Shown here in pieces: positions 1 through 12,777 of a stretch of DNA of 18,324 nucleotides. The stretch comes from a virus (taxonomy: Duplodnaviria > Heunggongvirae > Uroviricota > Caudoviricetes): the IMG/VR virus record IMGVR_UViG_2606217174_000014, one strand, 5' to 3'. Under the pieces are notes generated by a model that was not told where the DNA came from, ran no database searches, and saw nothing but the letters and a program-made list of their open reading frames with translations. The position numbers were made by a program, and so were the translations under genes. Each line of letters begins with the position of its first letter. Positions within the stretch are counted from its first letter, which is position 1.

Positions 1-276
1 TTACCGACTGCGGCCTGAGTTTTTTAAGTGACGTAAAATCGTGTTGAGGCCAACGCCCATAATGCGGGCAGTTGCCCGGCATCCAACGCCATTCATGGCC
101 ATATCAATGATTTTCTGGTGCGTACCGGGTTGAGAAGCGGTGTAAGTGAACTGCAGTTGCCATGTTTTACGGCAGTGAGAGCAGAGATAGCGCTGATGTC
201 CGGCGGTGCTTTTGCCGTTACGCACCACCCCGTCAGTAGCTGAACAGGAGGGACAGCTGATAGAAACAGAAGCCAC
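1..276 (-). CDS. insA: IS1 transposition repressor InsA
   Basis: 91-aa translation [40 protein letters not shown]... matches IS1 InsA as I recall it, with zinc-finger cysteines and an HTH. Confidence 0.92.
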
Positions 277-331
277 TGGAGCACCTCAAAAACACCATCA
301 TACACTAAATCAGTAAGTTGGCAGCATCACC
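1..331 (-). mobile_element. IS1 insertion sequence, partial (window opens inside the element; terminal inverted repeat at 309-331)
   Basis: The minus strand encodes full-length InsA ending at position 1, the A6C frameshift motif (plus-strand gttttttaa at 18-26) sits at the window edge, and 309-331 is the reverse complement of the IS1 end GGTGATGCTGCCAACTTACTGAT. The rest of the element (insB) lies off-window. Confidence 0.9.
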
Positions 332-357
332 ATAACTTTTAGTAAATAATTGGCGTA

Positions 358-741
358 TTAATTAGAGTTATTAACAACGATATCCATCTCTAACCGGATA
401 TCTAATGCCATTAACATCCCTTCAATTATGCCCTCAGCCTTCTGTAACCTTTTCCCGATATAACCATCAGAGCAGCAATGCTTACCTGCCAGTGACATGA
501 ATGTCATACCGACTACATAATAATCTACTAATAAATCGTGCAAATCGCTGTTGTTCTTTTTCAGACGGGCCATGCACCCGCAAATGATCATCGCGTCATC
601 GTCACAACATTGCGGGCGAGATTTTACTTTTGAAGTAATTAATCCCTTAAAACCGGCGGCAATGGACGACCAGGTCACATCTTCATGATTATTAGCCGCC
701 CACGCTCCCCAACGCTCAAGAACCATCTGAATATCACGCAT
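358..741 (-). CDS. quuD: Late-gene antiterminator Q (DLP12 QuuD-like family, not lambda Q)
   Basis: ORF 358..756; the likely start is the internal [14 protein letters not shown]... at 741, which has a GGAG Shine-Dalgarno 6 nt upstream. Cys-rich, and positioned immediately after rusA-ylcG as in DLP12. Confidence 0.8.
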
Positions 742-826
742 CAACTTACTCCACAAAAATCAGACCAGAACGCCAATTACAAGCAAAAATCAACGAAACA
801 GTATTAGTTGATTGTTATCTCTGACT

Positions 827-964
827 TCATACTCCTGCTCCTGTCAGGGTTTTGGCGTAATTCTTCAGTATTCGGTAATCGGTCAAAACAGAACCGGGGA
901 AACGATATAAGCGCAGACGCCCCCAGCGGTGGCGAAGACGTTCTGCCATATAAAACTCAAACAT
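827..964 (-). CDS. ylcG: Small DLP12-type protein YlcG (45 aa)
   Basis: Manual translation [45 protein letters not shown]; the start codon overlaps the rusA stop (ATGA). Below the ORF-track length cut-off. Confidence 0.6.
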   Translation of the reverse strand: MFEFYMAERLRHRWGRLRLYRFPGSVLTDYRILKNYAKTLTGAGV

Positions 965-1326
965 CATTCATTCCCCATTTCGGTGATGGTCAGTTCCAGC
1001 CTCCCACCTTTGGTAACAGGCATCTTCACAACGCGGTAATCAACGACCTGAGCATCATCCAGCCAGAAACCTGCTTTAGTGAGTGCGTCAAAAGCGGCTT
1101 TTTGCAGATTATCCAGGTCACGGCGACGGCGATCCGGCATGTGGCACTCAATGCGGATTTTCACAGGCATAGCCAGGCCGATATCCAGCATTGCGTTTTT
1201 AATGATTCGGGCGACGTTATCGCGGTATGCCTGCCCCTCTGCGCTGACGTGCGTGCGCCCGCGATTATGGCGGTAATAGCGATTATTGCTCGGAGGCCAG
1301 GGTAATGTGATGCTGTAGGTATTCAC
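964..1326 (-). CDS. rusA: Holliday junction resolvase RusA
   Basis: 120-aa translation [37 protein letters not shown]... matches E. coli RusA. Confidence 0.92.
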
Positions 1327-1613
1327 GCCTTAATAACCCCCTCTTTCAGCCAGATAACCTGTGTTCTCGCCATACCTTCCAGCGCGCATTCTTTTGCATA
1401 TGCAGCATCGACAAAATGTGTGCGGCGGTCGATTTCGTCGTGGCAGGCAGAACATGCAATGGTGGCAATCAGGTCTGGCGGTTTGGTACCGGTGCCGCAC
1501 AATCCAGTCAGCCGGATATGTGCCAGTACAGACGTTTCAGGGTTGCCATTACATACGCCAGGGATTCTTACCTGGCATTCCCGACTACGCGCTGCTTTTC
1601 TCAAATCAGCCAT
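1323..1613 (-). CDS. ybcO: YbcO-like nin-region protein (Cys-rich, putative nuclease)
   Basis: ORF 1323..1652; the probable start is the internal [23 protein letters not shown]... at 1613, which overlaps the ninE stop (ATGGCTGA). Confidence 0.75.
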
Positions 1614-1776
1614 GATTCCTCCTTGCTGCCAGTCGCAACCATTTTTTATCAACCAGGCTGGCGGTATATCCGAGCAGTGTTGGTATTTCGGAAGGCTTCA
1701 GCTCCGGTTTACGCTTACGACGATCTGGTACTCTGTAGATGTGTCCGTTCATGACACGAATAAGCGGTGTAGCCAT
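1606..1776 (-). CDS. ninE: NinE (56 aa)
   Basis: Manual translation [56 protein letters not shown]; the start overlaps the ybcN stop (TAATG). Not in the ORF track because it is under 60 aa. Confidence 0.7.
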   Translation of the reverse strand: MATPLIRVMNGHIYRVPDRRKRKPELKPSEIPTLLGYTASLVDKKWLRLAARRNHG

Positions 1777-2231
1777 TACGCCTCCTGCTTGTCGCGGAGC
1801 AGCTGGAACTCGCAGCTCTGCGGAATAGTCAGGTGGCAGCCAATATTCACCGCCCAGGCTTCAACCTTACACAGGAAGACATACATCTCTCCGGTATCAA
1901 GATCGGAGGTATGGCGTAACGACTGGATAGTGGTGATATCACCGGTTACAACATCAACCAGGTCTTTGGTTTCATAACCGAGATATGTGTGTTTGAGAGC
2001 ATCTTTTACCCAAGCTGGAGTAGCGAACGTTTTACCCCTGCTGATGAGGTATTCACTGATTTCGCTGTACCACATGTGGCTGAGTGCATTCTGGGAAAGA
2101 CTGCGTTTCTCACGCCACGGTTTAAGCACCATGCGAAAGCATTTGCCCTCCTCCAGATAAGGCTGGATCTGCCGACCGATAGCGGTGAAGTTACCGCGAT
2201 GTAATTTGATGCCATCTTGTGGGAGATTCAC
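1776..2231 (-). CDS. ybcN: YbcN-like nin-region DNA-binding protein
   Basis: 151-aa translation (M)[20 protein letters not shown]... with a GTG start preceded by a GGAGG Shine-Dalgarno; matches the DLP12 YbcN gene order. Confidence 0.8.
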
Positions 2232-2329
2232 GCTTCACCTCCGCAGAGGTCAAACGCTGGATACAATATATCGCAGGTGCATTTCTGCATCTGTGGAGGG
2301 AGAAGAGAGTTTGGATTGTGTGTGCGCAT
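2228..2329 (-). CDS. ylcH: Small protein YlcH-like (33 aa)
   Basis: Manual translation [33 protein letters not shown]; GGGGA Shine-Dalgarno; the stop overlaps the ybcN GTG start. Family assignment is by position only. Confidence 0.45.
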
Positions 2330-2418
2330 AAACGTCCCCGTTTAGCGCAGAAGTCACCGGAGTTGTTCAGGCTCCGATGACATGATTATGGCGAGTTGAT
2401 TATCGCAAATCAAAGGTT

Positions 2419-2775
2419 TTAATTGTGCTTTATTCCTTCAAGCGTTGCCTTCATACCAACCAAAGAAATGTTTAGCTCTCCAACTTTCTCAGGGCTATAT
2501 AATTCAGAATGAAGCCAATATTCTGATTTATCTAAACATCTTTTAGCCAGCTCTCGATCAAAGTCTACGACTTGGGAAGACGCTTCATACCAAAGCCTAT
2601 AAAGTTTTTCTTCTTCGTTTGGGTTATTAGGCTCACCACGTTTTAATTTTTCAGTATATAAAATTGTTGAATAAATCGCAGGAGTTAATCCAGTGATTGC
2701 CCTCTGCCGCAGATCGGATTTGTTTGTTATCCACCCCAACAGACGATCTCCCATCCATGTGATAATTGTATCCAT
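2419..2775 (-). CDS. Hypothetical protein, 118 aa, AT-rich orphan (moron-like)
   Basis: Clean ORF with an upstream AAGGG; composition is markedly more AT-rich than the flanking nin genes; no family recognised. Confidence 0.6.
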   Translation of the reverse strand: MDTIITWMGDRLLGWITNKSDLRQRAITGLTPAIYSTILYTEKLKRGEPNNPNEEEKLYRLWYEASSQVVDFDRELAKRCLDKSEYWLHSELYSPEKVGELNISLVGMKATLEGIKHN

Positions 2776-3236
2776 GCTTTAGCCCTTCTTAGTAAATAGT
2801 GTGTAGGGCGACTGAAGGACCGAGTTTATGCTTTTTCGCATTGCTTTCAGTTAGTACACCGGTATCGCACCGGAAACAATCCTACGGCAAATTGGTTGTC
2901 TGACCTCTCGGTTTTTCGTGCATTAACCGATACCCACTACAGTCTCGGCGAAAGCTGCACACCCCCAGGGTGTACTGGTAGCACTCGGCACAGCCTAGCA
3001 CGCCACTTTCTTCTCACTATCCAGTCTAATTTTATCCCCTAGTCAGACACTCAGATGTAGTGCTCCGCAGCGGCATGCGGGGGAATACAAAAACTCGGAC
3101 AAAATTGGGCCCTCCTTTTTGAATCACTCGCGGGGATGTAGTTATTAATACATGGAAAAAGATCTGTTTTCAAATCCAACATTATATGGTTTCAATACCA
3201 CGGGGTGGCTATGTGTTTCTCATTGTTAATTGGAAT

Positions 3237-3560
3237 CTACTGTAATCGATCCGAACGTAAATGCGGCAAAACTCGACTCCACTTATCATCCTGCCACGGC
3301 CGGAATTTTACATGTGCCGTTTCTCTGGCAAGGATTGCCTGTGCCTTATTGAGTATCTGGGGATATTCTTGCTCGATAGAAGTGAAGCGACCAGCTTCAC
3401 GATGCTCCGCAACCTGAAGAAGAGGAGTAACGTTCTGGTAGGTAATTAACATCACATTCCCTGCTCGCCATAACCAGGCGAGTGTGCAAAGTTCGTTATC
3501 AGTGAATTGTTTTGTGATTGGGTATTGTTGAACTGCTAGAACGAGAACGCCAGCATCCAT
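3237..3560 (-). CDS. Hypothetical protein (107 aa, or ~72 aa from the internal start MLITYQNV...)
   Basis: ORF in the ybcK-downstream region. The first ATG has a weak Shine-Dalgarno; the internal ATG has AGGGA upstream. No family recognised. Confidence 0.3.
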   Translation of the reverse strand: MDAGVLVLAVQQYPITKQFTDNELCTLAWLWRAGNVMLITYQNVTPLLQVAEHREAGRFTSIEQEYPQILNKAQAILARETAHVKFRPWQDDKWSRVLPHLRSDRLQ

Positions 3561-3671
3561 TGGCAGTCTCTATAGTAAAACCATAGCTCAGGACGCTTCG
3601 TTCAGGATAGATAATTTTAATGTACTTACCTAACTTTCTTACTATAGCACGGTTGAAAAAGTGATTATTAC

Positions 3672-5198
3672 TCAAAAATAAACCTCACCATCAACCATAT
3701 ATTTGAGAGTACTTATCGCCTGCTGGGCGGATATTGTTTTCATTAAAGGATAGTGTTTAAAAACAATGCCATTCATAAAATAGATATCACAGGTTTTATT
3801 ATCTGTATTGATTATGATTTTTTCGAATGTTTTATAGGCAAGTGTACGACATAGCTCTCGCCCATTTTTACTGGTTAAGTCAATAGCATGAAAATCACCA
3901 AGTGAACTCACCGCTTTACTCTTCAAAGTTTTTAATGATACAGAAGCCCTTCGTAATTCCTTATCTAATACTCTGATTTTTTCTGCTATAGCGGTAACTT
4001 CAGGCGCAACAGATAATGCAGCAATTAAATTATTAATTTTCATCTGGAGCTCAATAATTTTCAACTCTAAAGTTTCATTAGCATCTTTCTTGTTTTCAAC
4101 TGGTTGGATTTTACTACAATTAAAAAGCAACTCATTAATGATATTATAATCAACCAAATCTCTCTTTATTGATGGCCTGTCACATCGATGCAGTCTTCTC
4201 ATCGGACAAACATAATAGCCATGCAAACTTCTAGATACCGCATGAACAATCATGGTATTACCACAAGCCTCGCACTTCATAACTGTTCGAAGTAGATTTA
4301 TCAACATAGGATTTTTGCTACTATTGCTAATACCAAAAGGTGCCAACCGAATTTCCTGTACAGCGTAAAACAAATCATCTGATATGACTCTGGGATAATA
4401 GCCAGCGATTTCACTTATTCCTTTACCTCTTGCACGATATGAAGGTACGCATATACCTATCAGAGCTTTATTCGCTAATAATTTTTCAATTACAGAAGGT
4501 CCCCATGCACTTTCTTTTCCTGAGAAATTCTTTACAGCATGATCATTTAAATACTTGGCTATTGCATTCAATGAGCGCCTTTCCATCCTGAGTTTAAAAA
4601 TTAGCTCAATAGTTTTCACCCTGTCGGGGTCTGGAACAAAAGCCGTTCTTTTGTCATCTAAGGAGAGCCATCTCGGACAAGACGCCGTCATAATCGTACC
4701 TGATTCCAGTGCATCCTGCCGTTTTTTCTTCCATGATAATTTAACCCGACTTGACTTTATCTCGCTTTCTTCATTTGCCCTTTGTGCTATAAGTATGGCT
4801 TTTATTAATGAATATGGCTCATTCAAAGAGTCAATATTATAGACTGTATTGTCGCAAAGAGTTATAACATCAATACCGTGATTCAAAATCAATTTCAGAC
4901 GTTCAATCGCTTCACCGACTTTTTCTCTTGAAAGTCTGTCCAGACTTTCAACTAACAATGTAGTTCCTGGCAATATATAACCATGCTCTATAGCATCTAA
5001 AAATTCCGAAAAAGCTCCTGATTGTGCATGCTTTCCTTTGAATGCACTTAATCCTAAATCTTCATATGTTATGGTATCAAGATAATAATCACTATTTACC
5101 TTTAACCATTCAGCAATAAGTCTTCTCTGTCGGTTTAATGAGTCGCCAGACATCTGACCTGGTGATGAAAATCGCATATATGCTATGGCTTTTTTCAT
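3672..5198 (-). CDS. ybcK: Large serine recombinase (DLP12 YbcK-like)
   Basis: 508 aa. N-terminal resolvase catalytic motif (AYMRFSSPGQ with the serine nucleophile, then SLNRQ), followed by a recombinase domain, Cys clusters (CEACGN...C...C) and a C-terminal coiled-coil region. AGGTG Shine-Dalgarno. Confidence 0.85.
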   Translation of the reverse strand: MKKAIAYMRFSSPGQMSGDSLNRQRRLIAEWLKVNSDYYLDTITYEDLGLSAFKGKHAQSGAFSEFLDAIEHGYILPGTTLLVESLDRLSREKVGEAIERLKLILNHGIDVITLCDNTVYNIDSLNEPYSLIKAILIAQRANEESEIKSSRVKLSWKKKRQDALESGTIMTASCPRWLSLDDKRTAFVPDPDRVKTIELIFKLRMERRSLNAIAKYLNDHAVKNFSGKESAWGPSVIEKLLANKALIGICVPSYRARGKGISEIAGYYPRVISDDLFYAVQEIRLAPFGISNSSKNPMLINLLRTVMKCEACGNTMIVHAVSRSLHGYYVCPMRRLHRCDRPSIKRDLVDYNIINELLFNCSKIQPVENKKDANETLELKIIELQMKINNLIAALSVAPEVTAIAEKIRVLDKELRRASVSLKTLKSKAVSSLGDFHAIDLTSKNGRELCRTLAYKTFEKIIINTDNKTCDIYFMNGIVFKHYPLMKTISAQQAISTLKYMVDGEVYF

Positions 5199-5453
5199 GG
5201 TGACACCTGCTAACGTATGCTTTTATAAACCTTAGTGGTGGGATATAATTTTGTTTAATTTTTATTTAAAAAGACAATTAAGGTCACATTATCTTGAATA
5301 TACAACAATAATCGTATTGCAATTTTCTTACGCCATAATCTTGAAAGCACAAAAGAATACATAAAAAAATAAAGACATTAACAAAAAGCATAAAACGAGG
5401 CTCATATAAATATAAGAGCCTCCATATTTTAGTCGTTTAGAAACAAATTATTT

Positions 5454-5786
5454 TTAATGTGGTGTGCTTCGTGACAATAAATTAATAACCAACACACCGG
5501 CACAAATCAACATCATGCCTATAATGGCTGGCAGGTCCAGCCGTTGGCCGAAAAGTCCCCATGACAGTAAGCTAATCAGGACAATACCGACTCCTGACCA
5601 GATAGCATAAGCAATCCCTGTAGGAATATAAGCCAGCGTCTGAGCTAATAACCAGAATGATGCACAATAACAAATAATTGTACCAACAGATGGCCATAAC
5701 CGTGTAAAACCTTCTGAAAACTTCATTAAGGTTGTACCAATGACCTCTGCAAGTATTGCACCACCAAGATAAATATAAGGGTTCAT
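5454..5786 (-). CDS. emrE: SMR-family multidrug efflux transporter EmrE
   Basis: ORF 5454..5840; the internal start MNPYIYLGGAILAEVIGTTLMKFSEGFTRLWPSVG... gives a 110-aa four-helix SMR protein matching EmrE. Confidence 0.9.
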   Translation of the reverse strand: MNPYIYLGGAILAEVIGTTLMKFSEGFTRLWPSVGTIICYCASFWLLAQTLAYIPTGIAYAIWSGVGIVLISLLSWGLFGQRLDLPAIIGMMLICAGVLVINLLSRSTPH

Positions 5787-5853
5787 AGAATATTCTTTCC
5801 TGTTCAAACTGGAGAGAATTGTACTACAGTTTGAACTCAACTCACCTGTTTCA

Positions 5854-6156
5854 TCATTGTGTACCCATTGATGTTCTTTTATATACCCTCAATACCCGTT
5901 TCATCGCGGCACTCTGGCGACACTCCTTAAAAATCAGATTCGTGCTCACCTTTCCTTCCCGTTCTTCTCTGGTAGCAAACCGGTAATACACCGTTCGCCA
6001 GACCTTACCTTCGATAGCCAGAAGACCTGCCCGTGCCATTTTAGCCGCAGCCTGATTTATGCTGGTTACCGTTGCGCCTGTTACCGCGGCAACGTCCTGC
6101 GCACAGAATTTCTTATGAGTCCCCAGGTAATGAATAATTGCCTCTTTGCCCGTCAT
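5854..6156 (-). CDS. ren: Ren-like protein
   Basis: MTGKEAIIHYLGTH...ATVTSINQAAAKMARAG...VWRTVYYRFATREEREGK... matches lambda Ren as recalled; the C-terminus diverges. The start overlaps the end of P (ATGA). Confidence 0.8.
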   Translation of the reverse strand: MTGKEAIIHYLGTHKKFCAQDVAAVTGATVTSINQAAAKMARAGLLAIEGKVWRTVYYRFATREEREGKVSTNLIFKECRQSAAMKRVLRVYKRTSMGTQ

Positions 6157-6853
6157 ACCCTTGCTCCTTTCAGCCCAAACTTAGCTTTGATTTCTGCGAT
6201 CTTCGCCAGAGCCTGTGCACGATTTAGAGGTCTACCGCCCATGACAGGAAGTTGTTTTACTGGTTCAGGTATAGCCTCACCACGGTTAATTCGTGCGGTC
6301 ATACAGGACAGTTCATCGGCAGCCTTGCGCCGTAATTCCGCGTCAGTCACGCATTGGCCCGCATGTTCTGATACAGGTTGGTAACCAGCCAGTAGTGCGC
6401 GTTTGATTTCCACGGATAAGACTCTGCATCCGGATACAGCCCGCGCTTCCGGCAATACTCGTAAACCATATCAACCAGCTCGCTGGCGTTTGGCAGCCCG
6501 GCGGTAACGGATGCTTCTTCCCGGCACCAGGCGACAAACTGCCCGGGTGATGGCAGGAATGGTCGATTCTGCCGACGGGCTACGCGCATTCCAGCGTTAA
6601 CCTGTTCCATTGTGGTGATCCCGTTTTCCCGAAAAGCCAGCACCCACTGGCGGCGGATTTCGTTCAGTTCATTCTGGTCACGGTTAGCCAGGCTCGCCGG
6701 GAAAGTTGCCAGTAACTGGCTGAACACACCGTTGATGATCTGCGCTACCTGCTGTACCTGCGGCTTTTCGTCGTACTGTTCCGGCATGTTGTTGGCGATC
6801 CGACGCATCTGCTCACGGTCAAAGTTAACCATCTGTGCGGCGATGTTTTTCAT
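6153..6853 (-). pseudogene. P: Replication protein P (DnaB loader), disrupted by a 1-nt frameshift near 6347
   Basis: The 168-aa ORF 6347..6853 (MKNIAAQMVNFDREQMRRIANN...NMRANA*) and the 100-aa ORF 6153..6455 (...VTDAELRRKAADEL...KIAEIKAKFGLKGARV) together form one lambda-P-like protein but sit in different frames. Confidence 0.8.
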
Positions 6854-7779
6854 AAATCCACCCCGTAAATCCAGTCAGTGTTTGTCAGGTCGAGTTTTGG
6901 TTTGCTGGCTATCATGCCTGCCTGTTGCTTGTTACGGTTGATTTCGAGTTGGGTCCACTTGTCGCGGAGTTTGGCCGGACTTAGCACGTTACCGGACCAG
7001 AAGTTGTCCTGGCATGCCCAGCGGAAAAGCACGCACATGTCGCGGTGGTTACGTCCGTCACGTTCACGCATCAGGCGGATATCGTTAGCCCACCCTGCAA
7101 AATTCGGTTTTCTGGCTGATGGTGCGATGGTCTTCACCATGTCAAACATCCACTCTGCGGCGGTCAGGTCTTCTGCTGTCCCCCACTTGCTGCCGCTCTG
7201 AATTGCAGCATCTGGTTTCACCACAGGAAGATCGTTTTCTGGTTGGTCAGAGGATTCGCCAGAATTCTCGGACGAAAAAGGTTTTATATTGTCTTTTGTT
7301 AGTTTGTCTTTTGTGTTTACCTGATTCGGGTAAACGCCTTTACCTGATTTGGGTAAACTTTTCTTACCTGATTCAGGTAAATTTACCTCTTTCAGGTAAA
7401 CTTTATTTTTCTTACCTGATTCGGGTAATGTTGACCATTCACTGACCACATTATTAATACCGATATTCCGCCCGCTCTGAATCAAAATCCCACGCTTTAC
7501 CAGAACACTTTTTGCAGCAGAACACTTGTGCGGTAATATCCCGGTCAATCCGGACAGTTGCTCGTTGCTCACCCAATCCAGTTTTTTATTAAAGCCATAT
7601 GTTTTGCGCATGACAGCCAGGAAGACCAGAAGCTGGTGCTGTGTTAATCCGGCCAGCATCACAGCTTCCAGCAACTCATTTGCAATGCGCGTATAACCAT
7701 CATCGAGATCTGCCACGCGCGGCTCCTTTTGTGCCGCATCCGGCACTGGAAAATTGAATATCTCAGCAGTGTTTGCCAT
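6850..7779 (-). CDS. O: Replication initiator O
   Basis: ORF 6850..7869; the probable start is MANTAEIFNF... at 7779 (compare lambda O MTNTAKILNF). ADLDDGY and LLVFLAVMRKTYG motifs; the gene contains the iterons. Confidence 0.85.
   Translation of the reverse strand: MANTAEIFNFPVPDAAQKEPRVADLDDGYTRIANELLEAVMLAGLTQHQLLVFLAVMRKTYGFNKKLDWVSNEQLSGLTGILPHKCSAAKSVLVKRGILIQSGRNIGINNVVSEWSTLPESGKKNKVYLKEVNLPESGKKSLPKSGKGVYPNQVNTKDKLTKDNIKPFSSENSGESSDQPENDLPVVKPDAAIQSGSKWGTAEDLTAAEWMFDMVKTIAPSARKPNFAGWANDIRLMRERDGRNHRDMCVLFRWACQDNFWSGNVLSPAKLRDKWTQLEINRNKQQAGMIASKPKLDLTNTDWIYGVDL
7318..7430. repeat. Replication origin iterons (five ~18-bp direct repeats, tacctgattcgggtaaac-like) inside the O gene
   Basis: Repeats at about 7318, 7341, 7366, 7384 and 7413, with an AT-rich tract (7261-7310) on the O-distal side, as at ori-lambda. 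Confidence 0.8.
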
Positions 7780-7865
7780 AATTCCTCCCGCAATGAGTGT
7801 GTTACGATTTGCACCTGAAAGTCGGTTCTGTTCCAGCAGACCGGCTTTCGCCATTTCTGAACCTG

Positions 7866-8405
7866 TCATATCGCCCCCAGCATGGTAGTAACCATCGCCA
7901 TCAATGGACCAGCCAGATCTGGGTCCACACGAAACATCGATACAATACCTTCACTAATTTCCTTCAGTTTCTGGTGGCGTGGTGCGTTGAGAATGACAGC
8001 CTGTTTTGCCTCACTGAGTTCCTTTTCCATTTCAGCCAACCTGGCCATGAAGCTATCCTGCTCAACCAGGTAACCGCGATATTCCAGCGGTAGTACCGCC
8101 AGAATTGCCGGGGTCAGTTCACGCACGTTATTTCGGTATTTTTCAGAATCGAATTTGTTATCGAGGAAGCGGAACAGCTTCTGGCGTGCACGGCTGACAT
8201 CATCAGGGAAATCGATGGTGCCGCCGCCCTGCTCCCGATACTCATTCACAATGAGTGTGGCAACGACATCCTGATTATCTACAGCCGACCAGGCGCGGAC
8301 GGCATCACGGATTTTTTCGTGGCCTGGCACCTGTTTTGTTTGAGAACGATTTATCACCGCAGTCGGGCTAAATCCGCTAGTCTGTTGGTATGGAAGTGGT
8401 TGCAT
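7866..8405 (-). CDS. Early regulatory protein in the cII position (YdaT-like, 179 aa)
   Basis: Clean ORF with an AAGGAG Shine-Dalgarno immediately downstream of cro. Family assignment is from position and general resemblance only. Confidence 0.6.
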   Translation of the reverse strand: MQPLPYQQTSGFSPTAVINRSQTKQVPGHEKIRDAVRAWSAVDNQDVVATLIVNEYREQGGGTIDFPDDVSRARQKLFRFLDNKFDSEKYRNNVRELTPAILAVLPLEYRGYLVEQDSFMARLAEMEKELSEAKQAVILNAPRHQKLKEISEGIVSMFRVDPDLAGPLMAMVTTMLGAI

Positions 8406-8474
8406 AATTGACTCCTTTAGTTTGAATTGACTGTTAAGTTGATTGCTTATTGTTAAAGAGCGTGAAATGGAAAT

Positions 8475-8705
8475 TTAAGCTGCGTTCTTTTCGGTGTGTG
8501 GAAACAACTTCGGAAGATCCGGGCGAATCTGGTATGCCTTCACTACTCCACCAGTAGCCGTAACAATGCTGCCGACATGTTCAGGGGATACCTTTGCTTT
8601 GTTGTGAAGCCACTTATAGACGGCCTGCTGTGAAACTTCGCAAGCAGCGCCCAGTTTCTTTTGTGAACCAACGATATTGATCGCTGTTTTGATAGCTGGG
8701 TTCAT
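8475..8705 (-). CDS. cro: Cro-like HTH repressor (YdaS family)
   Basis: 76 aa, HTH ...AACEVSQQAVYKWLHN..., C-terminal TGG.V....IRPDL pattern, GGAGG Shine-Dalgarno, divergent from cI. Confidence 0.8.
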   Translation of the reverse strand: MNPAIKTAINIVGSQKKLGAACEVSQQAVYKWLHNKAKVSPEHVGSIVTATGGVVKAYQIRPDLPKLFPHTEKNAA

Positions 8706-8809
8706 AACAACCTCCGTGGTTAATTTGAATCAAGATTAAAACTATGGTTGTTTTTAGTCAACAACCATTTTCGTTTGATGGAATAAAACCTTGGTTGTAC
8801 ATTTGGACT
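8706..8809. promoter_or_regulatory. oR/pR/pRM divergent immunity control region
   Basis: Palindrome ATGGTTGTT-n7-AACAACCAT (8744-8768) plus further GGTTG/CAACC motifs. Minus-strand pR: -35 TTGACT (8761..8756) and -10 TAATCT (8738..8733). Plus-strand pRM-like promoter: -35 TTGATG (8775-8780), 17-bp spacer, -10 TACATT (8798-8803), placing the transcript start at the A of the cI ATG. Confidence 0.6.
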
Positions 8810-9499
8810 ATGAAAACAACACTCTCAGAAAGACTTAAAGAAGCCAGATTAGCGCGAGGCCTTACACAAAAGGCGCTTGGGGATTTGGTCGGGGTTAGCC
8901 AGGCTGCTATTCAGAAAATCGAAACAGGGAAAGCTAATCAAACAACTAAAATCGTGGAGATCGCGAACGCTTTGGGTGTGCGCGCAGAATGGTTATCTTC
9001 TGGCGTTGGAAATATGTCAGACAGTACAGTGCAACCAATACAATCAACTGTCAGCCATTCCAAATACTTCAAGATTGACGTTCTTGATATAGAAGTCAGT
9101 GCTGGGCCGGGAGTCATCAACCGTGAGTTTGTAGAAGTTCTACGCTCGGTTGAGTACTCGTTTGACGATGCTCGTCACATGTTCGATGGTAGGAAGGCGG
9201 AAAATATCCGCATCATTAACGTGCGTGGTGACAGCATGTCAGGAACGATCGAACCAGGTGATCTGCTGTTCGTTGATATCACAGTTAAATCTTTCGACGG
9301 TGATGGTATCTATGCGTTTCTGTACGACGACACAGCCCATGTAAAGCGCCTGCAAATGATGAAGGATAAGCTGCTGGTCATCTCTGATAACAAAAGCTAC
9401 TCACCGTGGGACCCGATCGAGAAAGACGAGATGAACCGGGTGTTCATCTTCGGTAAGGTTATTGGGAGCATGCCGCAGACATATAGGAAGCATGGGTAG
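8810..9499 (+). CDS. cI: CI-type prophage repressor (HTH plus LexA/S24-like autocleavage domain)
   Basis: MKTTLSERLKEARLARGLTQKALGDLVGVSQAAIQKIETGK... followed by a C-terminal region with GDSM (catalytic Ser) and a downstream Lys. ORF-track start 8744 rejected because it would overlap the operators. Confidence 0.85.
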   Translation: MKTTLSERLKEARLARGLTQKALGDLVGVSQAAIQKIETGKANQTTKIVEIANALGVRAEWLSSGVGNMSDSTVQPIQSTVSHSKYFKIDVLDIEVSAGPGVINREFVEVLRSVEYSFDDARHMFDGRKAENIRIINVRGDSMSGTIEPGDLLFVDITVKSFDGDGIYAFLYDDTAHVKRLQMMKDKLLVISDNKSYSPWDPIEKDEMNRVFIFGKVIGSMPQTYRKHG

Positions 9500-9620
9500 T
9501 ACCAATTAAAAATTATCAACTGGGCATTGTGCTCATTCAGTAAAGAACTAATTCCTATCTTTGCTCTAGGTAGTAATATTAAGCCACCGCAATAATATCT
9601 TTACCTAACGGCGTAAGAAT

Positions 9621-9647
9621 CCCGGTCACCGTGCCGGGTTTTCTTTT
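9621..9647 (+). terminator. Rho-independent terminator downstream of cI
   Basis: CCCGG-tcaccgtg-CCGGG stem-loop followed by TTTTCTTTT. Confidence 0.65.
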
Positions 9648-9740
9648 GCCCTCCCCTCATCACACACACCGTTAAAAAAACCACCATAACCTCGCTTCAG
9701 TTATCGCTATGTGATTCAAGTCACAAAATAAATCCATCCT

Positions 9741-9817
9741 AAATACAACCAGTTATATCTAAAACAACCAATAAAACAACTTTTGTTGTTGACGATAAAA
9801 CAACTATAGTTTTAAAT
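9741..9817 (+). promoter_or_regulatory. oL/pL region
   Basis: Repeated AACAAC half-sites including the perfect palindrome AACAAC-tttt-GTTGTT (9775-9790), which overlaps the -35 TTGACG (9789-9794); 17-bp spacer; -10 TTAAAT (9812-9817). The 19-bp core aaaacaac[t/c]atagttttaa is shared with pR. Confidence 0.6.
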
Positions 9818-9890
9818 AAGTTCATCGCAACAACACAACGATACGGCAACTACCTGATTCACCGTTGCGATGACCGCTTAGATCCGCAGT

Positions 9891-10301
9891 TTGAATTTCA
9901 GCAGGCTTCGGGGAGTGCGAGGGGTGAAACGGACGCGTGAACGTCGGTGTGACCAGCTGAAATTAACTCAACATTTCATACCTCAGTCGCTTCAACGAGG
10001 CGGCTTAGTTATGACAACCGGCGGCCATCCACCGCCTGAATATGCGCAGAAGTCTCTATATGTTCAGCAGCCCAGCTTACGGGCAGGAGTTTTTATGGTT
10101 CATCAACATTACGGAACACAGACCGTTAATCGCGGCGCGGTCATGCCAGGAATGCTGGTCAAACACAAAGATGGTACCTGGACTGCATCAGCTAATTTAC
10201 GCGGACGGCTTTATCTGCATCGCGGCATCGAGCGCACTTATACCAGTGATTTGCTCGTGGAAGTTTTTCTCGACGGACGCGGTAACGGCCTGAATCACTA
10301 A
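9891..10301 (+). CDS. Hypothetical protein in the N position (136 aa from 9891, or 96 aa from the ATG at 10011)
   Basis: First ORF downstream of pL. The N-terminus carries an Arg-rich stretch (RLRGVRGVKRTRERR) resembling the arginine-rich motifs of lambdoid N proteins. The 10011 start has a GAGG Shine-Dalgarno; the 9891 start has none. Confidence 0.4.
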   Translation: MNFSRLRGVRGVKRTRERRCDQLKLTQHFIPQSLQRGGLVMTTGGHPPPEYAQKSLYVQQPSLRAGVFMVHQHYGTQTVNRGAVMPGMLVKHKDGTWTASANLRGRLYLHRGIERTYTSDLLVEVFLDGRGNGLNH

Positions 10302-10377
10302 CCCCCCTTTCCTGTTTTCCTAATCAGCCTGGCATTTCGCGGGCGATATTTTCACAGCCATTTTCAGGAGTTCAGCC

Positions 10378-10674
10378 ATGAACGCTTATTACATTCAGGA
10401 TCGTCTTGAGGCTCAGAGCTGGGCGCGTCACTACCAGCAGCTCGCCCGTGAAGAGAAAGAGGCAGAACTGGCAGACGACATGGAAAAAAGCCTGCCCCAG
10501 CACCTGTTTGAATCGCTATGCATCGATCATTTGCAACGCCACGGGGCCAGCAAAAAAGCCATTACCCGTGCGTTTGATGACGATGTTGAGTTTCAGGAGC
10601 GCATGGCAGAACACATCCGGTACATGGTTGAAACCATTGCTCACCACCAGGTTGATATTGATTCAGAGGTATAA
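10378..10674 (+). CDS. gam: Gam, RecBCD inhibitor (98-aa GamS form)
   Basis: [37 protein letters not shown]... matches lambda Gam. Confidence 0.92.
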
Positions 10675-10679
10675 AACGG

Positions 10680-11465
10680 ATGAGTACAGCACTCGCAACG
10701 CTGGCTGGGAAGCTGGCTGAACGTGTCGGCATGGATTCTGTCGACCCACAGGAACTGATCACCACTCTTCGCCAGACGGCATTTAAAGGTGATGCCAGCG
10801 ATGCGCAGTTCATCGCATTGTTGATCGTCGCCAACCAGTACGGCCTTAATCCGTGGACGAAAGAAATTTACGCCTTCCCTGACAAGCAGAACGGCATCGT
10901 TCCGGTGGTGGGCGTTGATGGCTGGTCCCGTATCATCAATGAAAACCAGCAGTTTGATGGCATGGACTTTGAGCAGGACAATGAATCATGTACATGCCGG
11001 ATTTACCGCAAGGACCGTAATCATCCGATCTGCGTTACCGAGTGGATGGATGAATGCCGCCGCGAACCATTCAAAACCCGCGAAGGCAGAGAAATCACGG
11101 GGCCGTGGCAGTCGCATCCCAAACGGATGTTACGGCATAAAGCCATGATTCAGTGTGCCCGTCTCGCCTTCGGATTTGCTGGTATCTATGACAAGGATGA
11201 AGCCGAGCGCATTGTCGAAAATACCGCATACACTGCAGAACGTCAGCCGGAACGCGACATCACTCCGGTTAACGATGAAACCATGCAGGAGATTAACACT
11301 CTGCTGATCGCCCTGGATAAAACATGGGATGACGACTTATTGCCGCTCTGTTCCCAGATATTTCGCCGCGACATTCGCGCATCGTCAGAACTGACACAGG
11401 CCGAAGCAGTGAAAGCTCTTGGATTCCTGAAACAGAAAGCCACTGAGCAGAAGGTGGCAGCATGA
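10680..11465 (+). CDS. bet: Bet (Red-beta single-strand annealing protein)
   Basis: 261-aa translation [38 protein letters not shown]... matches lambda Bet. Confidence 0.95.
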
Positions 11466-12142
11466 CACCGGACATTATCCTGCAGCGTACCGGGATCGAC
11501 GTGAGAGCTGTCGAACAGGGGGATGATGCATGGCACAAATTACGGCTCGGCGTCATCACCGCTTCAGAAGTTCACAACGTGATAGCAAAGCCCCGCTCAG
11601 GAAAGAAGTGGCCTGACATGAAAATGTCCTACTTCCACACCCTGCTGGCTGAGGTTTGCACCGGTGTGGCTCCGGAAGTTAATGCTAAGGCGCTGGCCTG
11701 GGGAAAACAGTACGAGAACGACGCCAGAACCCTGTTTGAATTCACTTCCGGCGTGAATATTACTGAATCCCCGATCATCTATCGCGACGAAAATATGCGC
11801 ACCGCCTGCTCTCCCGATGGTTTATGCAGTGACGGCAACGGCCTTGAACTGAAATGCCCGTTTACCTCCCGGGATTTCATGAAATTCCGGCTCGGTGGTT
11901 TCGAGGCAATAAAATCGGCTTACATGGCCCAGGTGCAGTACAGCATGTGGGTGACGCGAAAAGATGCCTGGTACTTTGCCAACTATGACCCGCGCATGAA
12001 GCGTGAAGGCCTGCATTATGTCGTGATTGAGCGGAATGAAAAGTACATGGCGAGTTTTGACGAGATGGTGCCGGAGTTCATCGAAAAAATGGACGAGGCA
12101 CTGGCTGAAATTGGTTTTGTATTTGGGGAGCAATGGCGATGA
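11462..12142 (+). CDS. exo: Exo (lambda exonuclease, Red-alpha)
   Basis: 226-aa translation [40 protein letters not shown]... matches lambda Exo; the start overlaps the bet stop. Confidence 0.95.
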
Positions 12143-12321
12143 CGCATCCTCACGATAATATCCGGGTAGGCGCGATCACTTTCGTCTACTCCGTTACAAA
12201 GCGAGGCTGGGGATTTCCCAGCCTTTCTGTTATCCAAAATCCACTGAAAGCCCAGCGGCTGGCTGAGGAGATAAATAATAAACGAGGGGCTGTATGCACA
12301 AAGCATCTCCCGTTGAGTTAA
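12133..12321 (+). CDS. Lambda orf60a-like small protein
   Basis: 62 aa, [21 protein letters not shown]...; sits directly downstream of exo as in lambda. Confidence 0.6.
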
Positions 12322-12485
12322 GAACGAGTATCGAGATGGCACATAGCCTCGCTCAAATTGGAGTCAGGTTTGTGCCAATACCAGTAGAAACAGACGAAGA
12401 ATTTCACACGTTAGCCGCATCCCTTTCACAAAAGCTGGAAATGATGGTGGCGAAAGCAGAAGCAGATGAGAGAGACCAGGTATGA
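12294..12485 (+). CDS. Lambda orf63-like small protein
   Basis: 63 aa, [23 protein letters not shown]...; lambda gene order. Confidence 0.6.
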   Translation: MHKASPVELRTSIEMAHSLAQIGVRFVPIPVETDEEFHTLAASLSQKLEMMVAKAEADERDQV

Positions 12486-12565
12486 CAACCACTGAATGCA
12501 TTTTTCTGGCAGCGGGCTTCATATTCTGTGTGCTTATGCTTGCCGACATGGGACTTGTTCAATGA
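12482..12565 (+). CDS. Small hydrophobic peptide (27 aa, MTTTECIFLAAGFIFCVLMLADMGLVQ)
   Basis: ATGA overlaps at both ends (with the orf63 stop and the next gene's start) suggest translational coupling. Likely a single-pass membrane peptide. Confidence 0.4.
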   Translation: MTTTECIFLAAGFIFCVLMLADMGLVQ

Positions 12566-12777
12566 CACCTCAGCAGGAAAACGCCCTTCGCAGCATTGCC
12601 CGTCAGGCTAATTCTGAAATCAAAAAAGCCAGACAGCAGTTTCCGGATAAAAACGTCGATGACATTTGCCGTAGCGTACTGAAGAAGCACCGCGAAACGG
12701 TAACGCTGATGGGATTCACACCGACTCATTTAAGCCTGGCAATCGGCATGTTAAACGGCGTCTTTAAGGAACGATGA
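12562..12777 (+). CDS. Lambda orf61-region small protein (71 aa)
   Basis: MTPQQENALRSIARQANSEIKKARQQFPDKNVDD...; the ORF-track start at 12496 is less likely than the coupled ATG at 12562. Confidence 0.55.
   Translation: MTPQQENALRSIARQANSEIKKARQQFPDKNVDDICRSVLKKHRETVTLMGFTPTHLSLAIGMLNGVFKER

What the first reader, a model, noticed from the sequence alone, without database searches (positions are those of the whole stretch)
2419..2775. 118-aa AT-rich orphan gene inserted into the nin region
A clean ORF with a plausible ribosome-binding site and much lower GC than the adjacent ylcH-ybcN-ninE module, suggesting recent horizontal acquisition. The translation (MDTIITWMGDRLLGWITNKSDLRQRAITGL...) is unfamiliar to me. 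Small acquired genes in the nin region are frequent accessory functions.
Basis: inference. Interest (0 to 1): 0.45.

Follow-up and report, generated by a model that had tools for sequence, protein, structure and literature searches.

The report
Prophage cargo gene behind unknown RNA
The 118-codon gene is real and is one of several interchangeable accessory genes in lambda-like prophages of enteric bacteria, but the more notable feature is the "empty" stretch just upstream, which is a conserved, roughly 335-base folded RNA gene that matches no catalogued RNA family.

Summary
The ORF is confirmed at 2419-2775 on the minus strand: 118 aa, Shine-Dalgarno-like AAGAAGGG, 38% GC against 52% for the neighbouring nin genes. 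Its dN/dS is 0.06-0.29, so it is a real gene.

It is not an orphan. It matches PHROG 12412 end to end, and a profile search finds 351 representative clusters. Most are stand-alone proteins of about 120-135 aa. Some carry the same four-helix domain at the N-terminus of TIR, multi-transmembrane or alpha/beta-hydrolase proteins. Distant stand-alone relatives are integron cassettes. No Pfam, NCBIfam, PADLOC or PDB match names the domain.

It is not linked to the serine recombinase ybcK. In its close family (69% identity or more) it always follows the "ORF-poor" stretch. That stretch (about 3137 to 2803, minus strand) is a structured RNA with 82 predicted pairs, 16 of them with compensatory changes, and no Rfam hit. 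In other phages the same RNA ends in an intrinsic terminator and is followed by unrelated cargo genes. Here the terminator is missing and the ORF follows directly.

Best reading: a swappable prophage cargo gene, co-transcribed with a new RNA, encoding a binding or adaptor domain used in phage-host conflict. The function of both protein and RNA is untested.

The parts
2419..2775 (-). 118-aa ORF (WP_000379700.1; PHROG 12412). Predicted soluble helical bundle with helices at 2-45, 52-69, 74-88, 95-101 and 105-117.
   Evidence: ORF list; RefSeq annotation; PHROG match; dN/dS 0.06-0.29; AlphaFold2 models with pLDDT 79.7 (11-sequence alignment) and 94.9, pTM 0.82 (64-sequence alignment)
2782..2790 (-). 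Shine-Dalgarno-like AAGAAGGGC, 6-7 nt upstream of the ATG.
   Evidence: Sequence; coordinates. In the E. coli lineage it can pair with GGUCCUUC at the 3' end of the RNA in a local MFE fold. This pairing is not conserved in other lineages.
2803..3137 (-). Structured non-coding RNA of about 335 nt. It starts AUCCCCGCGAG and its conserved core ends CAGUCGCC at 2807. It contains the invariant 24-mer GAGAGGUCAGACAACCAAUUUGCC at 2909-2886.
   Evidence: Covariance model hit at 2803-3137(-), 382.9 bits, single copy. RNAalifold: 82 pairs, 16 with compensatory changes. Pair counts: 98.3% paired against 34-49% in slid controls. No Rfam hit. No frame is open in all variants, and indels of 1 and 2 nt occur.
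3141..3173 (-). Putative promoter of the RNA: TTGAAA (3173-3168), 17 nt, TATTAA (3150-3145). This is inferred, not called by the tool.
   Evidence: The TTGnnn-17 nt-A/T-rich hexamer geometry is kept in all lineages while the spacer sequence differs (alignments). Coordinates. The consensus scanner did NOT report it.
2415..3632 (.). Block that replaces the ybcL-ybcM cassette of K-12 DLP12. It holds the Ant-like remnant, the RNA and the ORF.
   Evidence: BLAST against K-12: homology stops at window 3633 and resumes at 2414.
3237..3560 (-). 5'-truncated Bro-N/P22AR (Ant/Roi-like) gene, forming the upstream flank. It is full length (202 aa) in phage IdasGreatGrand.
   Evidence: Pfam P22_AR_C, E 1e-15. 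The full-length phage gene has Bro-N plus P22_AR_C. Colinearity of window 382-3547 with the phage.
1776..2329 (-). ylcH-like small ORF (2228-2329) and ybcN (1776-2231), the conserved downstream flank of the variable slot.
   Evidence: RefSeq annotation of the identical segment in strain MB56. A ybcN-like gene lies downstream of the RNA in 48 of the RNA-bearing loci.

Best explanation
The ORF is a genuine, selectively maintained accessory ('moron') gene. It occupies a variable cargo slot of lambdoid prophages of Enterobacterales. The slot lies between a conserved structured RNA gene of about 335 nt and the ylcH-ybcN-ninE module. In most lineages the RNA ends in an intrinsic terminator, and an unrelated cargo gene with its own ribosome-binding site follows. 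In the lineage of this window the terminator is absent and the ORF starts about 30 nt after the RNA. The ORF is therefore most likely made from the same transcript as the RNA, and also from read-through of the early rightward phage transcript. Its product is a small, slightly acidic, soluble helical bundle with no catalytic signature. The same domain is the N-terminal module of proteins whose C-terminal halves are TIR domains, multi-pass membrane segments or alpha/beta-hydrolases, found in defence-island or mobile-element settings. Stand-alone copies are integron cassettes. I therefore infer that it works by binding (a protein partner or a small ligand) as a sensor or adaptor module in phage-bacterium or phage-phage conflict. 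The most likely role is to modulate infection outcome for the lysogen, as superinfection exclusion or defence. Shown: the gene is real; the slot architecture; the RNA structure; the domain fusions. Inferred: co-transcription; the promoter; any role in conflict; the direction of that role.
For: Gene reality: homologues and dN/dS. Slot: K-12 carries ybcL-ybcM at the same place. After the same RNA, other phages carry a 183-aa, a 95-aa plus 162-aa, a 178-191-aa membrane-anchored or a 177-aa protein instead. All of these fall in PHROG families of unknown function or in none. Hairpins followed by U-runs come right after the RNA in those lineages (sequences, folds). No terminator is found between RNA and ORF here. 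All protein-seeded loci of close homologues (69% identity or more) have the RNA directly upstream. In complete E. coli genomes the RNA is found in 159 and the ORF DNA in 160. Fold: pLDDT 94.9. Fusions: TIR_2 (E 4e-18) after the bundle in P0073; transmembrane and hydrolase fusions. The TIR fusion lies beside GmrSD and a TM fusion beside ArdC-N. Integron setting: genes adjacent to integron-type integrases, with a VCR-like attC after the gene.
Against: No experiment and no named homologue supports any function. PADLOC has no model for the domain. About 60 of the 160 E. coli carriers have a decayed copy (66% coverage, 92% identity, truncated to 66 aa) while the RNA stays 98-100% identical. The host therefore often does without the protein. 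Homologues at 42-51% identity sit in a different, early-left phage operon (theta-like gene, X, DUF1233, integrase) without the RNA. That position fits an early lytic (counter-defence or host-takeover) role at least as well as a lysogen-protecting one. The promoter is seen only by eye, and the scanner did not call it. Fold searches return only generic helical bundles.
Confidence: 0.5

Rival explanations
1. Counter-defence decoy. The phage makes an effector-less copy of a domain that host TIR, TM or hydrolase immune proteins use for sensing or self-assembly. The copy poisons or sequesters those proteins early in infection.
For: The domain is the N-terminal module of TIR, TM and hydrolase proteins. 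The gene lies in early operons in the sense orientation, both here and in the early-left operon of other phages, where start and stop codons overlap and no separate promoter is evident. It decays in many resident prophages while neighbouring features persist.
Against: Stand-alone copies are common as bacterial integron cassettes, where a phage counter-defence role makes little sense. No fused homologue was found in E. coli or its relatives in these searches. The alternative cargos in the same slot look toxin- or membrane-protein-like rather than inhibitor-like, but that is a weak reading from motifs only.
Confidence: 0.2
2. The RNA and the ORF form one functional unit. Either the RNA is a long cis-acting sensor or leader that gates transcription read-through or translation of whatever cargo lies downstream, or the protein binds the RNA.
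For: The order RNA, terminator, cargo is constant while the cargo is swapped, as expected for a portable regulatory module. In the close family the RNA-ORF junction is kept across lineages with saturated dS. In the E. coli lineage the 3' end of the RNA can pair with the Shine-Dalgarno region.
Against: Homologues of the protein occur without the RNA, and the RNA occurs without the protein. The RNA is kept nearly unchanged where the ORF has decayed. The Shine-Dalgarno pairing is not conserved in Enterobacter or Obesumbacterium lineages. The protein is slightly acidic by my residue count (18 Asp+Glu against 16 Lys+Arg), which is unlike typical RNA binders. A sensing domain of about 335 nt would be unusually large.
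Confidence: 0.12
3. A passenger with no present function in this prophage. The ORF is still open here, but it is on the way to decay.
For: About 38% of E. coli carriers have a truncated 66-aa version (PHROG 8527).
Against: dN/dS is 0.06-0.29 across lineages and 44 positions are invariant. Intact copies are carried by isolated phages.
Confidence: 0.08
4. A HEPN-like RNase toxin.
For: The top Foldseek PDB hits of the high-confidence model are HEPN toxins.
Against: Those hits are not significant (E 0.3-0.7, TM 0.26-0.34). The family has no conserved Rx4-6H motif: the invariant residues are T37, Y40, W62, K83 and W87. There is no Pfam HEPN hit.
Confidence: 0.03

Closest known systems
Variable anti-phage cargo hotspots of temperate phages and satellites (P2 and P4 hotspots; Rousset et al. 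2022, PMC9122126, seen)
   Same: There is a fixed position in a temperate phage genome where unrelated, AT-rich accessory genes replace one another between conserved flanks.
   Different: The host phage is lambdoid and the slot is in the nin region. One flank is a structured RNA gene rather than a protein gene. None of the cargos here has a demonstrated or even annotated defence function.
Type III toxin-antitoxin loci (ToxIN, CptIN and TenpIN; from general knowledge)
   Same: The gene order is promoter, non-coding RNA, intrinsic terminator, then a small protein gene on the same strand.
   Different: The RNA is a single complex fold, not tandem repeats. One RNA is paired with at least five unrelated proteins. 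The proteins are not ToxN/AbiQ-like. In this window the terminator is absent.
Large structured non-coding RNAs of unknown function, some prophage-borne (GOLLD, ROOL and OLE; bioRxiv 10.1101/2024.12.08.627333 seen)
   Same: It is long, multi-branched and highly conserved, with invariant unpaired stretches, has no known function and sits in a prophage.
   Different: There is no Rfam match at all. It is smaller, at about 335 nt. It is restricted to lambdoid phages of Enterobacterales. It sits at the head of a cargo slot.
Small helical adaptor or effector-associated domains fused to TIR, membrane and hydrolase effectors in bacterial conflict systems (general knowledge; for example the EAD and Death-like domains described by the Aravind group)
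   Same: It is an all-helical domain of about 110 aa, found alone or N-terminal to TIR, multi-TM and alpha/beta-hydrolase modules.
   Different: No Pfam model, including those for such domains, matches any of the 64 members scanned. Homotypic interaction has not been tested.
ybcL-ybcM cassette of E. coli K-12 DLP12
   Same: It occupies the same position between ybcK and ylcH-ybcN.
   Different: The genes are unrelated (a periplasmic protein and an AraC-type regulator), and K-12 has no RNA element there.

Membership tests
PHROG 12412 (phage protein family, function unknown) | Full-length match to the family HMM | tested here: met
   E 4.9e-71, residues 1-118 on profile positions 1-118 of 118
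Any curated protein family (Pfam-A, NCBIfam, PADLOC) | Match at or above the curated threshold | tested here: not met
   No Pfam hit for the protein or for any of 64 family members beyond scattered single weak hits. NCBIfam gives only E 0.11 noise. PADLOC gives none.
HEPN superfamily | Conserved Rx4-6H catalytic motif in a four-helix bundle | tested here: not met
   The fold is helical and HEPN toxins top the Foldseek list, but only at E 0.3-0.7 and TM 0.26-0.34. No conserved R...H pair is among the invariant or near-invariant columns.
Type III toxin-antitoxin system | Antitoxin RNA made of tandem direct repeats | tested here: not met
   Tandem Repeats Finder finds nothing in 2300-3700. The alignment shows a single non-repetitive RNA.
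Type III toxin-antitoxin system | Intrinsic terminator between the RNA and the protein gene | tested here: not met
   Absent in this window. Present in lineages with other cargos.
Type III toxin-antitoxin system | Toxin of the ToxN/AbiQ, CptN or TenpN endoribonuclease families | tested here: not met
   No Pfam or PADLOC match for the ORF or for the alternative cargos
Any Rfam 15 RNA family (for the upstream RNA) | Covariance-model match | tested here: not met
   No match at E<=1 in 2200-3700. Only a 13-nt chance match at E 9.5 when the RNA alone is scanned. Nothing at gathering thresholds in the whole window. ARAGORN finds no tRNA or tmRNA.
Structured functional RNA (generic) | Base pairs kept through compensatory substitutions, beyond the controls | tested here: met
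   16 of 82 pairs have double changes, against 2-4 in slid controls. 98.3% of cells are paired against 34-49%. The covariation score is 0.242 against about 0.05. 0 of 500 shuffles reach the observed values. Invariant G-U pairs fix the strand as minus.
Riboswitch or cis-regulatory leader | Consistent class of downstream genes and a mutually exclusive terminator/antiterminator or Shine-Dalgarno-sequestering fold | tested here: inconclusive
   The downstream genes are unrelated to one another. A terminator follows in most lineages, but I could not show conserved alternative pairing. The Shine-Dalgarno pairing is seen only in the E. coli lineage.
Integron gene cassette | attC recombination site after the gene, in an array next to intI | tested here: not met
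   Here the gene lies in a lambdoid nin region between the RNA and ylcH. Distant homologues do meet the criterion: Vibrio fluvialis L010 has intI, the gene and a VCR-like attC.
Prophage moron or cargo-slot gene | Replaced by unrelated genes at the same position between conserved flanks in related phages, with deviant base composition | tested here: met

The most novel reading that the evidence does not exclude
The RNA of about 335 nt is a new class of phage-borne structured RNA that acts as the common sensing or gating module of a modular system. It would control read-through of its own terminator, or translation, so that interchangeable downstream effector genes are produced only under a particular condition such as infection by another phage. 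The effectors would be the four-helix protein here and, elsewhere, the HEPN-motif, PIN-like and membrane proteins. This would be an RNA-gated abortive-infection or exclusion cassette, with no known counterpart.
Probability: 0.12. Interest if true: 0.85.

Novelty: new variant of a known kind. Interest (0 to 1): 0.6.

Why it matters
Three things would follow if the readings hold. (1) An unannotated structured RNA sits in about 3% of complete E. coli genomes and in isolated phages. Gene callers currently translate through it. Large conserved RNAs with invariant unpaired segments often turn out to be ribozymes, ribonucleoprotein scaffolds or sensors, so this one is a concrete candidate for study in a genetically tractable host and phage. 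(2) It marks a cargo slot in lambdoid phages. That gives a simple way to harvest further candidate conflict genes: whatever lies between the RNA and ybcN. (3) The 118-aa protein defines an unnamed domain shared by phage accessory genes, integron cassettes and TIR, membrane and hydrolase effector proteins. Learning what it binds would annotate several hundred protein clusters at once.

Tried and rejected
- **Curated protein libraries.** Pfam, NCBIfam and PADLOC scans of the ORF found nothing. A Pfam scan of 64 family members also found nothing.
- **Link to the serine recombinase ybcK.** Rejected.
- **The upstream stretch as a coding region on either strand.** Rejected. Frames are not preserved, there are 1- and 2-nt indels, and a candidate 19-codon peptide acquires a stop in one lineage.
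- **tRNA or tmRNA.** None found.
- **Single-sequence folding of the RNA.** Not distinguishable from shuffles (z -0.68). The evidence for structure is comparative only.
- **Consensus promoter scan.** It does not call the promoter I infer, and its terminator scan missed the obvious hairpin plus U-run in L020.
- **Genome-contig scan.** The single scan, with an 18-mer, returned only chance matches, mostly Saccharibacteria (8.8 bits with the model).
- **Third word-indexed protein search.** Run with the fusion-domain alignment, it added little.
- **Literature searches.** Searches for the protein accession, the phage names, RNA sequence strings and topic words found nothing relevant.
- **Possible long-range pairing or pseudoknot.** GUCUGACY (alignment columns 90-97) could pair with GGUCAGAC (columns 233-240). 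It cannot be tested because both strands are invariant. The divergent copy L096 has one mismatch there.

Full report
**Setting.** The window is a DLP12-like lambdoid prophage read right to left. Positions 332-12670 are 99.95% identical to the chromosome of E. coli MB56. RefSeq annotates the matching segment there as quuD, ylcG, rusA, ybcO, ninE, ybcN, a ylcH-like ORF, 'hypothetical protein' WP_000379700.1, a P22AR C-terminal domain protein, ybcK, ylcJ, emrE, replication genes and the immunity region. The window is an IMG/VR contig of the same length, IMGVR_UViG_2617270962_000010 (locus L080).

**The observation.**
- AAGAAGGGC lies 6-7 nt upstream of the ATG.
- GC is 38.1% for the ORF against 51.6% for ybcN-rusA.
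- Full-length homologues at 69-79% identity exist in Enterobacter bugandensis, Obesumbacterium proteus and metagenomes, with 44 invariant positions.
- Nei-Gojobori dN/dS between lineages is 0.06-0.29, with dS at 1.5-2.9 or saturated.

It is a real protein-coding gene.

**What the protein is.** It matches PHROG 12412 end to end (E 5e-71), a family of unknown function. Pfam, NCBIfam and PADLOC have nothing.

An exhaustive profile search finds 351 representative clusters at E<=1e-3. Most are 100-145 aa. By my count, 23 of the best 150 are longer than 180 aa. A 64-sequence alignment has T37, Y40, W62, K83 and W87 invariant, and A26, A33, E55, A65, C80 and I103 nearly so. None of the 64 members hits a Pfam family consistently, and no PDB sequence matches the profile.

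With that alignment AlphaFold2 gives a confident model (pLDDT 94.9, pTM 0.82) of an all-helical bundle. The shallower alignment gave the same topology at pLDDT 79.7. Fold searches return only generic bundles. Foldseek also returns non-significant HEPN hits, and the family lacks an Rx4-6H motif.

The longer relatives are informative:
- In P0073 the bundle is followed by a TIR domain (TIR_2, E 4e-18).
- In P0054 and P0059 it is followed by a region that matches PADLOC candidate PDC-S60.
- In P0082, P0116, P0118, P0122, P0156, P0169, P0066, P0074 and P0107 it is followed by several hydrophobic, transmembrane-like segments.
- In P0159 it is followed by an alpha/beta-hydrolase-like region. In P0115 a hydrolase-like region precedes it.
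- The TIR fusion lies next to a GmrSD restriction gene, and a TM fusion lies next to an ArdC-N gene.

Distant stand-alone relatives of about 130 aa lie immediately beside integron-type integrases in Vibrio fluvialis, Marinobacter and a JGI genome. In Vibrio the gene is followed by a VCR-like attC (TAACAAG...GCGTTAT).

Relatives at 42-51% identity sit in a different phage location, between a DNA polymerase III theta-like gene and a DUF1233 gene next to the integrase, with overlapping start and stop codons.

**The surroundings.** Compared with K-12 DLP12, homology stops just past ybcK (window 3633) and resumes five bases past the ORF's stop codon (2414). A 1.2-kb block therefore stands where K-12 has ybcL-ybcM. 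The block is colinear at 95.5% with phage IdasGreatGrand (window 382-3547). In that phage the upstream gene is a full 202-aa Bro-N/P22AR protein. In the window it is cut down to 107 aa by the AT-rich ybcK-emrE segment.

**The unexpected part.** Aligning the DNA upstream of the ORF from E. coli, Enterobacter and Obesumbacterium shows something odd. About 335 nt with no ORF are more conserved than the gene itself, with invariant runs of up to 24 nt and substitutions clustered in short patches. Conservation starts abruptly at ATCCCCGCGAG (3137) and ends at CAGTCGCC (2807).
- Three independent conserved blocks retrieve the same roughly 65 IMG/VR contigs. A metagenome scan adds 25 loci. Together they give 33 distinct sequences.
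- RNAalifold on 17 distinct copies predicts 82 pairs, 16 of them with compensatory double changes.
- Explicit counting gives 98.3% of cells paired against 34-49% when partners are slid by 1-3 columns. There are 16 pairs with double changes against 2-4 in the slid controls. The covariation score is 0.242 against about 0.05. No shuffle out of 500 reaches the observed values.
- Several invariant G-U pairs fix the strand as that of the ORF.
- Indels of one and two bases, and the lack of any frame open in all copies, exclude a coding explanation.
- A covariance model finds one copy in the window (2803-3137, minus strand, 383 bits). It finds none in K-12 DLP12, the integron loci or the loci of the more distant protein homologues.
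- Rfam 15 has no match even at E<=10, and ARAGORN finds nothing.
- The element is unannotated in all 159 complete E. coli genomes that have it. In the phage record two small 'hypothetical proteins' are drawn across it.
- It is absent from PLSDB plasmids.

Upstream, every lineage keeps TTGnnn, 17 nt, and an A/T-rich hexamer, with unrelated spacer sequences. I read this as a promoter, but the consensus scanner does not call it, so it remains an inference.

**A cargo slot.** The gene after the RNA differs between phages:
- the 118-aa gene, intact in 35 of the loci fetched via the RNA 24-mer or decayed to 66 aa;
- a 95-aa plus a 162-aa protein in E. coli 3426;
- a 183-aa protein containing an RHNLLH motif in Klebsiella phages;
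- a membrane-anchored protein of 178-191 aa;
- a 177-aa protein with a PIN-like N-terminus.

All are PHROG families of unknown function or unmatched. The HEPN-like and PIN-like labels are readings of motifs only. In those lineages the RNA is followed within about 10 nt by a GC-rich hairpin and a U-run (sequences, folds). In the 118-aa lineages that terminator is missing and the ORF starts about 30 nt after the RNA.

The commonest genes downstream of the slot are ybcN, ninE/ybcO, rusA and Q. Upstream are the replication genes. ybcK is present in only 14 loci.

In complete E. coli genomes the RNA (159 genomes) and ORF DNA (160 genomes) go together. However, about 60 genomes have a deleted, 92%-identical remnant of the ORF, while the RNA stays 98-100% identical. 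So the RNA is under its own, stronger constraint, and the protein is dispensable to many hosts.

**Interpretation.** Because the protein family occurs without the RNA and the RNA without the protein, I treat them as separable modules. In this lineage they have become a single transcription unit through loss of the terminator.

For the protein, three facts point to a binding or adaptor role in conflict systems rather than an enzyme:
- it is a small non-catalytic bundle;
- it is repeatedly fused to TIR, membrane and hydrolase modules;
- it occurs on phages, integrons and defence-island neighbourhoods.

I cannot decide between defence of the lysogen and counter-defence by the phage, and I give them roughly 0.3 and 0.2. 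The RNA's function is open. Candidates are an independent trans-acting RNA, a ribonucleoprotein component or a cis-acting gate for the cargo. The last is the most novel reading and is not excluded.

**Limits.** All functional statements are inferences from sequence, predicted structure and context. The RNA alignment holds 17-33 distinct but related sequences from one order of bacteria. The helices that never vary (for example columns 1-14/54-61/99-104) are therefore unsupported either way. Expression was not measured.

Noticed in passing
window 2803-3137 (minus strand): The 'ORF-poor' stretch is a conserved structured RNA of about 335 nt with no Rfam match. It is present in 159 of 5426 complete E. 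coli genomes and unannotated in all of them. It became central to the report.
   Followed up: yes
L002 5594-5725 and 5775-5894 (phage IdasGreatGrand); protein P0009: Gene callers place small 'hypothetical proteins' inside the RNA, or extend the 118-aa ORF upstream through it (the 157-aa version). These are probably annotation artefacts.
   Followed up: partly
window 2807-2835 and 2776-2795: In the E. coli lineage the 3' end of the RNA (GGUCCUUC) can pair with GAAGGGCU, which covers the ORF's Shine-Dalgarno sequence. The pairing would compete with the RNA's closing helices. It is not conserved in other lineages.
   Followed up: partly
alignment A5 columns 90-97 and 233-240 (window about 3048-3041 and 2905-2898): Two invariant segments, GUCUGACY and GGUCAGAC, are perfectly complementary and could form a long-range helix or pseudoknot joining the 5' and 3' domains. 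This cannot be tested by covariation.
   Followed up: partly
alignment A5 columns 297-310 (window about 2841-2828): There is an invariant hairpin, AUGC-GAAAAA-GCAU. From memory, its loop resembles the purine-rich boxB loops bound by lambdoid N proteins. This was not tested.
   Followed up: no
window 3237-3560 against L002 4931-5539: The P22AR-domain ORF is a 5'-truncated Bro-N/P22AR (Ant/Roi-like) gene. It is full length in the phage. In the window the AT-rich ybcK-ylcJ-emrE segment (36-41% GC) abuts it.
   Followed up: partly
window 1-331: An IS1 insA reading frame (91 aa, ends at 276) lies at the window edge next to quuD. Identity with strain MB56 starts only at 332, so an IS1 is inserted here where MB56 continues into the nmpC/ompC-like porin region.
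   Followed up: partly
L028, L030, L022 and about 60 E. coli genomes: Decayed 66-aa versions of the ORF (PHROG 8527; 92% DNA identity with an internal deletion) lie next to an RNA that is 98-99% identical to the window's copy.
   Followed up: partly
L020 3385-3936; L096 (reverse-complement coordinates 3907-4440); L065 9460-10035; L019 3366-3653 and 3831-4319: Alternative cargos follow the same RNA. They are a 183-aa protein with an RHNLLH (Rx4H-like) motif, a 177-aa protein starting MKNIIIDSNAW (PIN-like), a protein of 178-191 aa with an N-terminal hydrophobic helix, and a 95-aa plus 162-aa pair. None has a Pfam or PADLOC match.
   Followed up: partly
L098 300-656; L099 4001-4363: Homologues of the 118-aa protein at 42-51% identity lie in another phage operon, between a DNA polymerase III theta-like gene and DUF1233/integrase, with overlapping stop and start codons.
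   Followed up: partly
L008 6001-7871 (Marinobacter sp. EN3): A distant 127-aa homologue next to an integron-type integrase fragment is followed by a 195-aa unknown protein and an AbiH-domain gene.
   Followed up: no
L084, L090, L091, L092 (Saccharibacteria genomes): The 18-mer GAGAGGTCAGACAACCAA recurs in several Saccharibacteria genomes. The covariance model scores these at only 8.8 bits, so they are probably an unrelated conserved sequence.
   Followed up: partly
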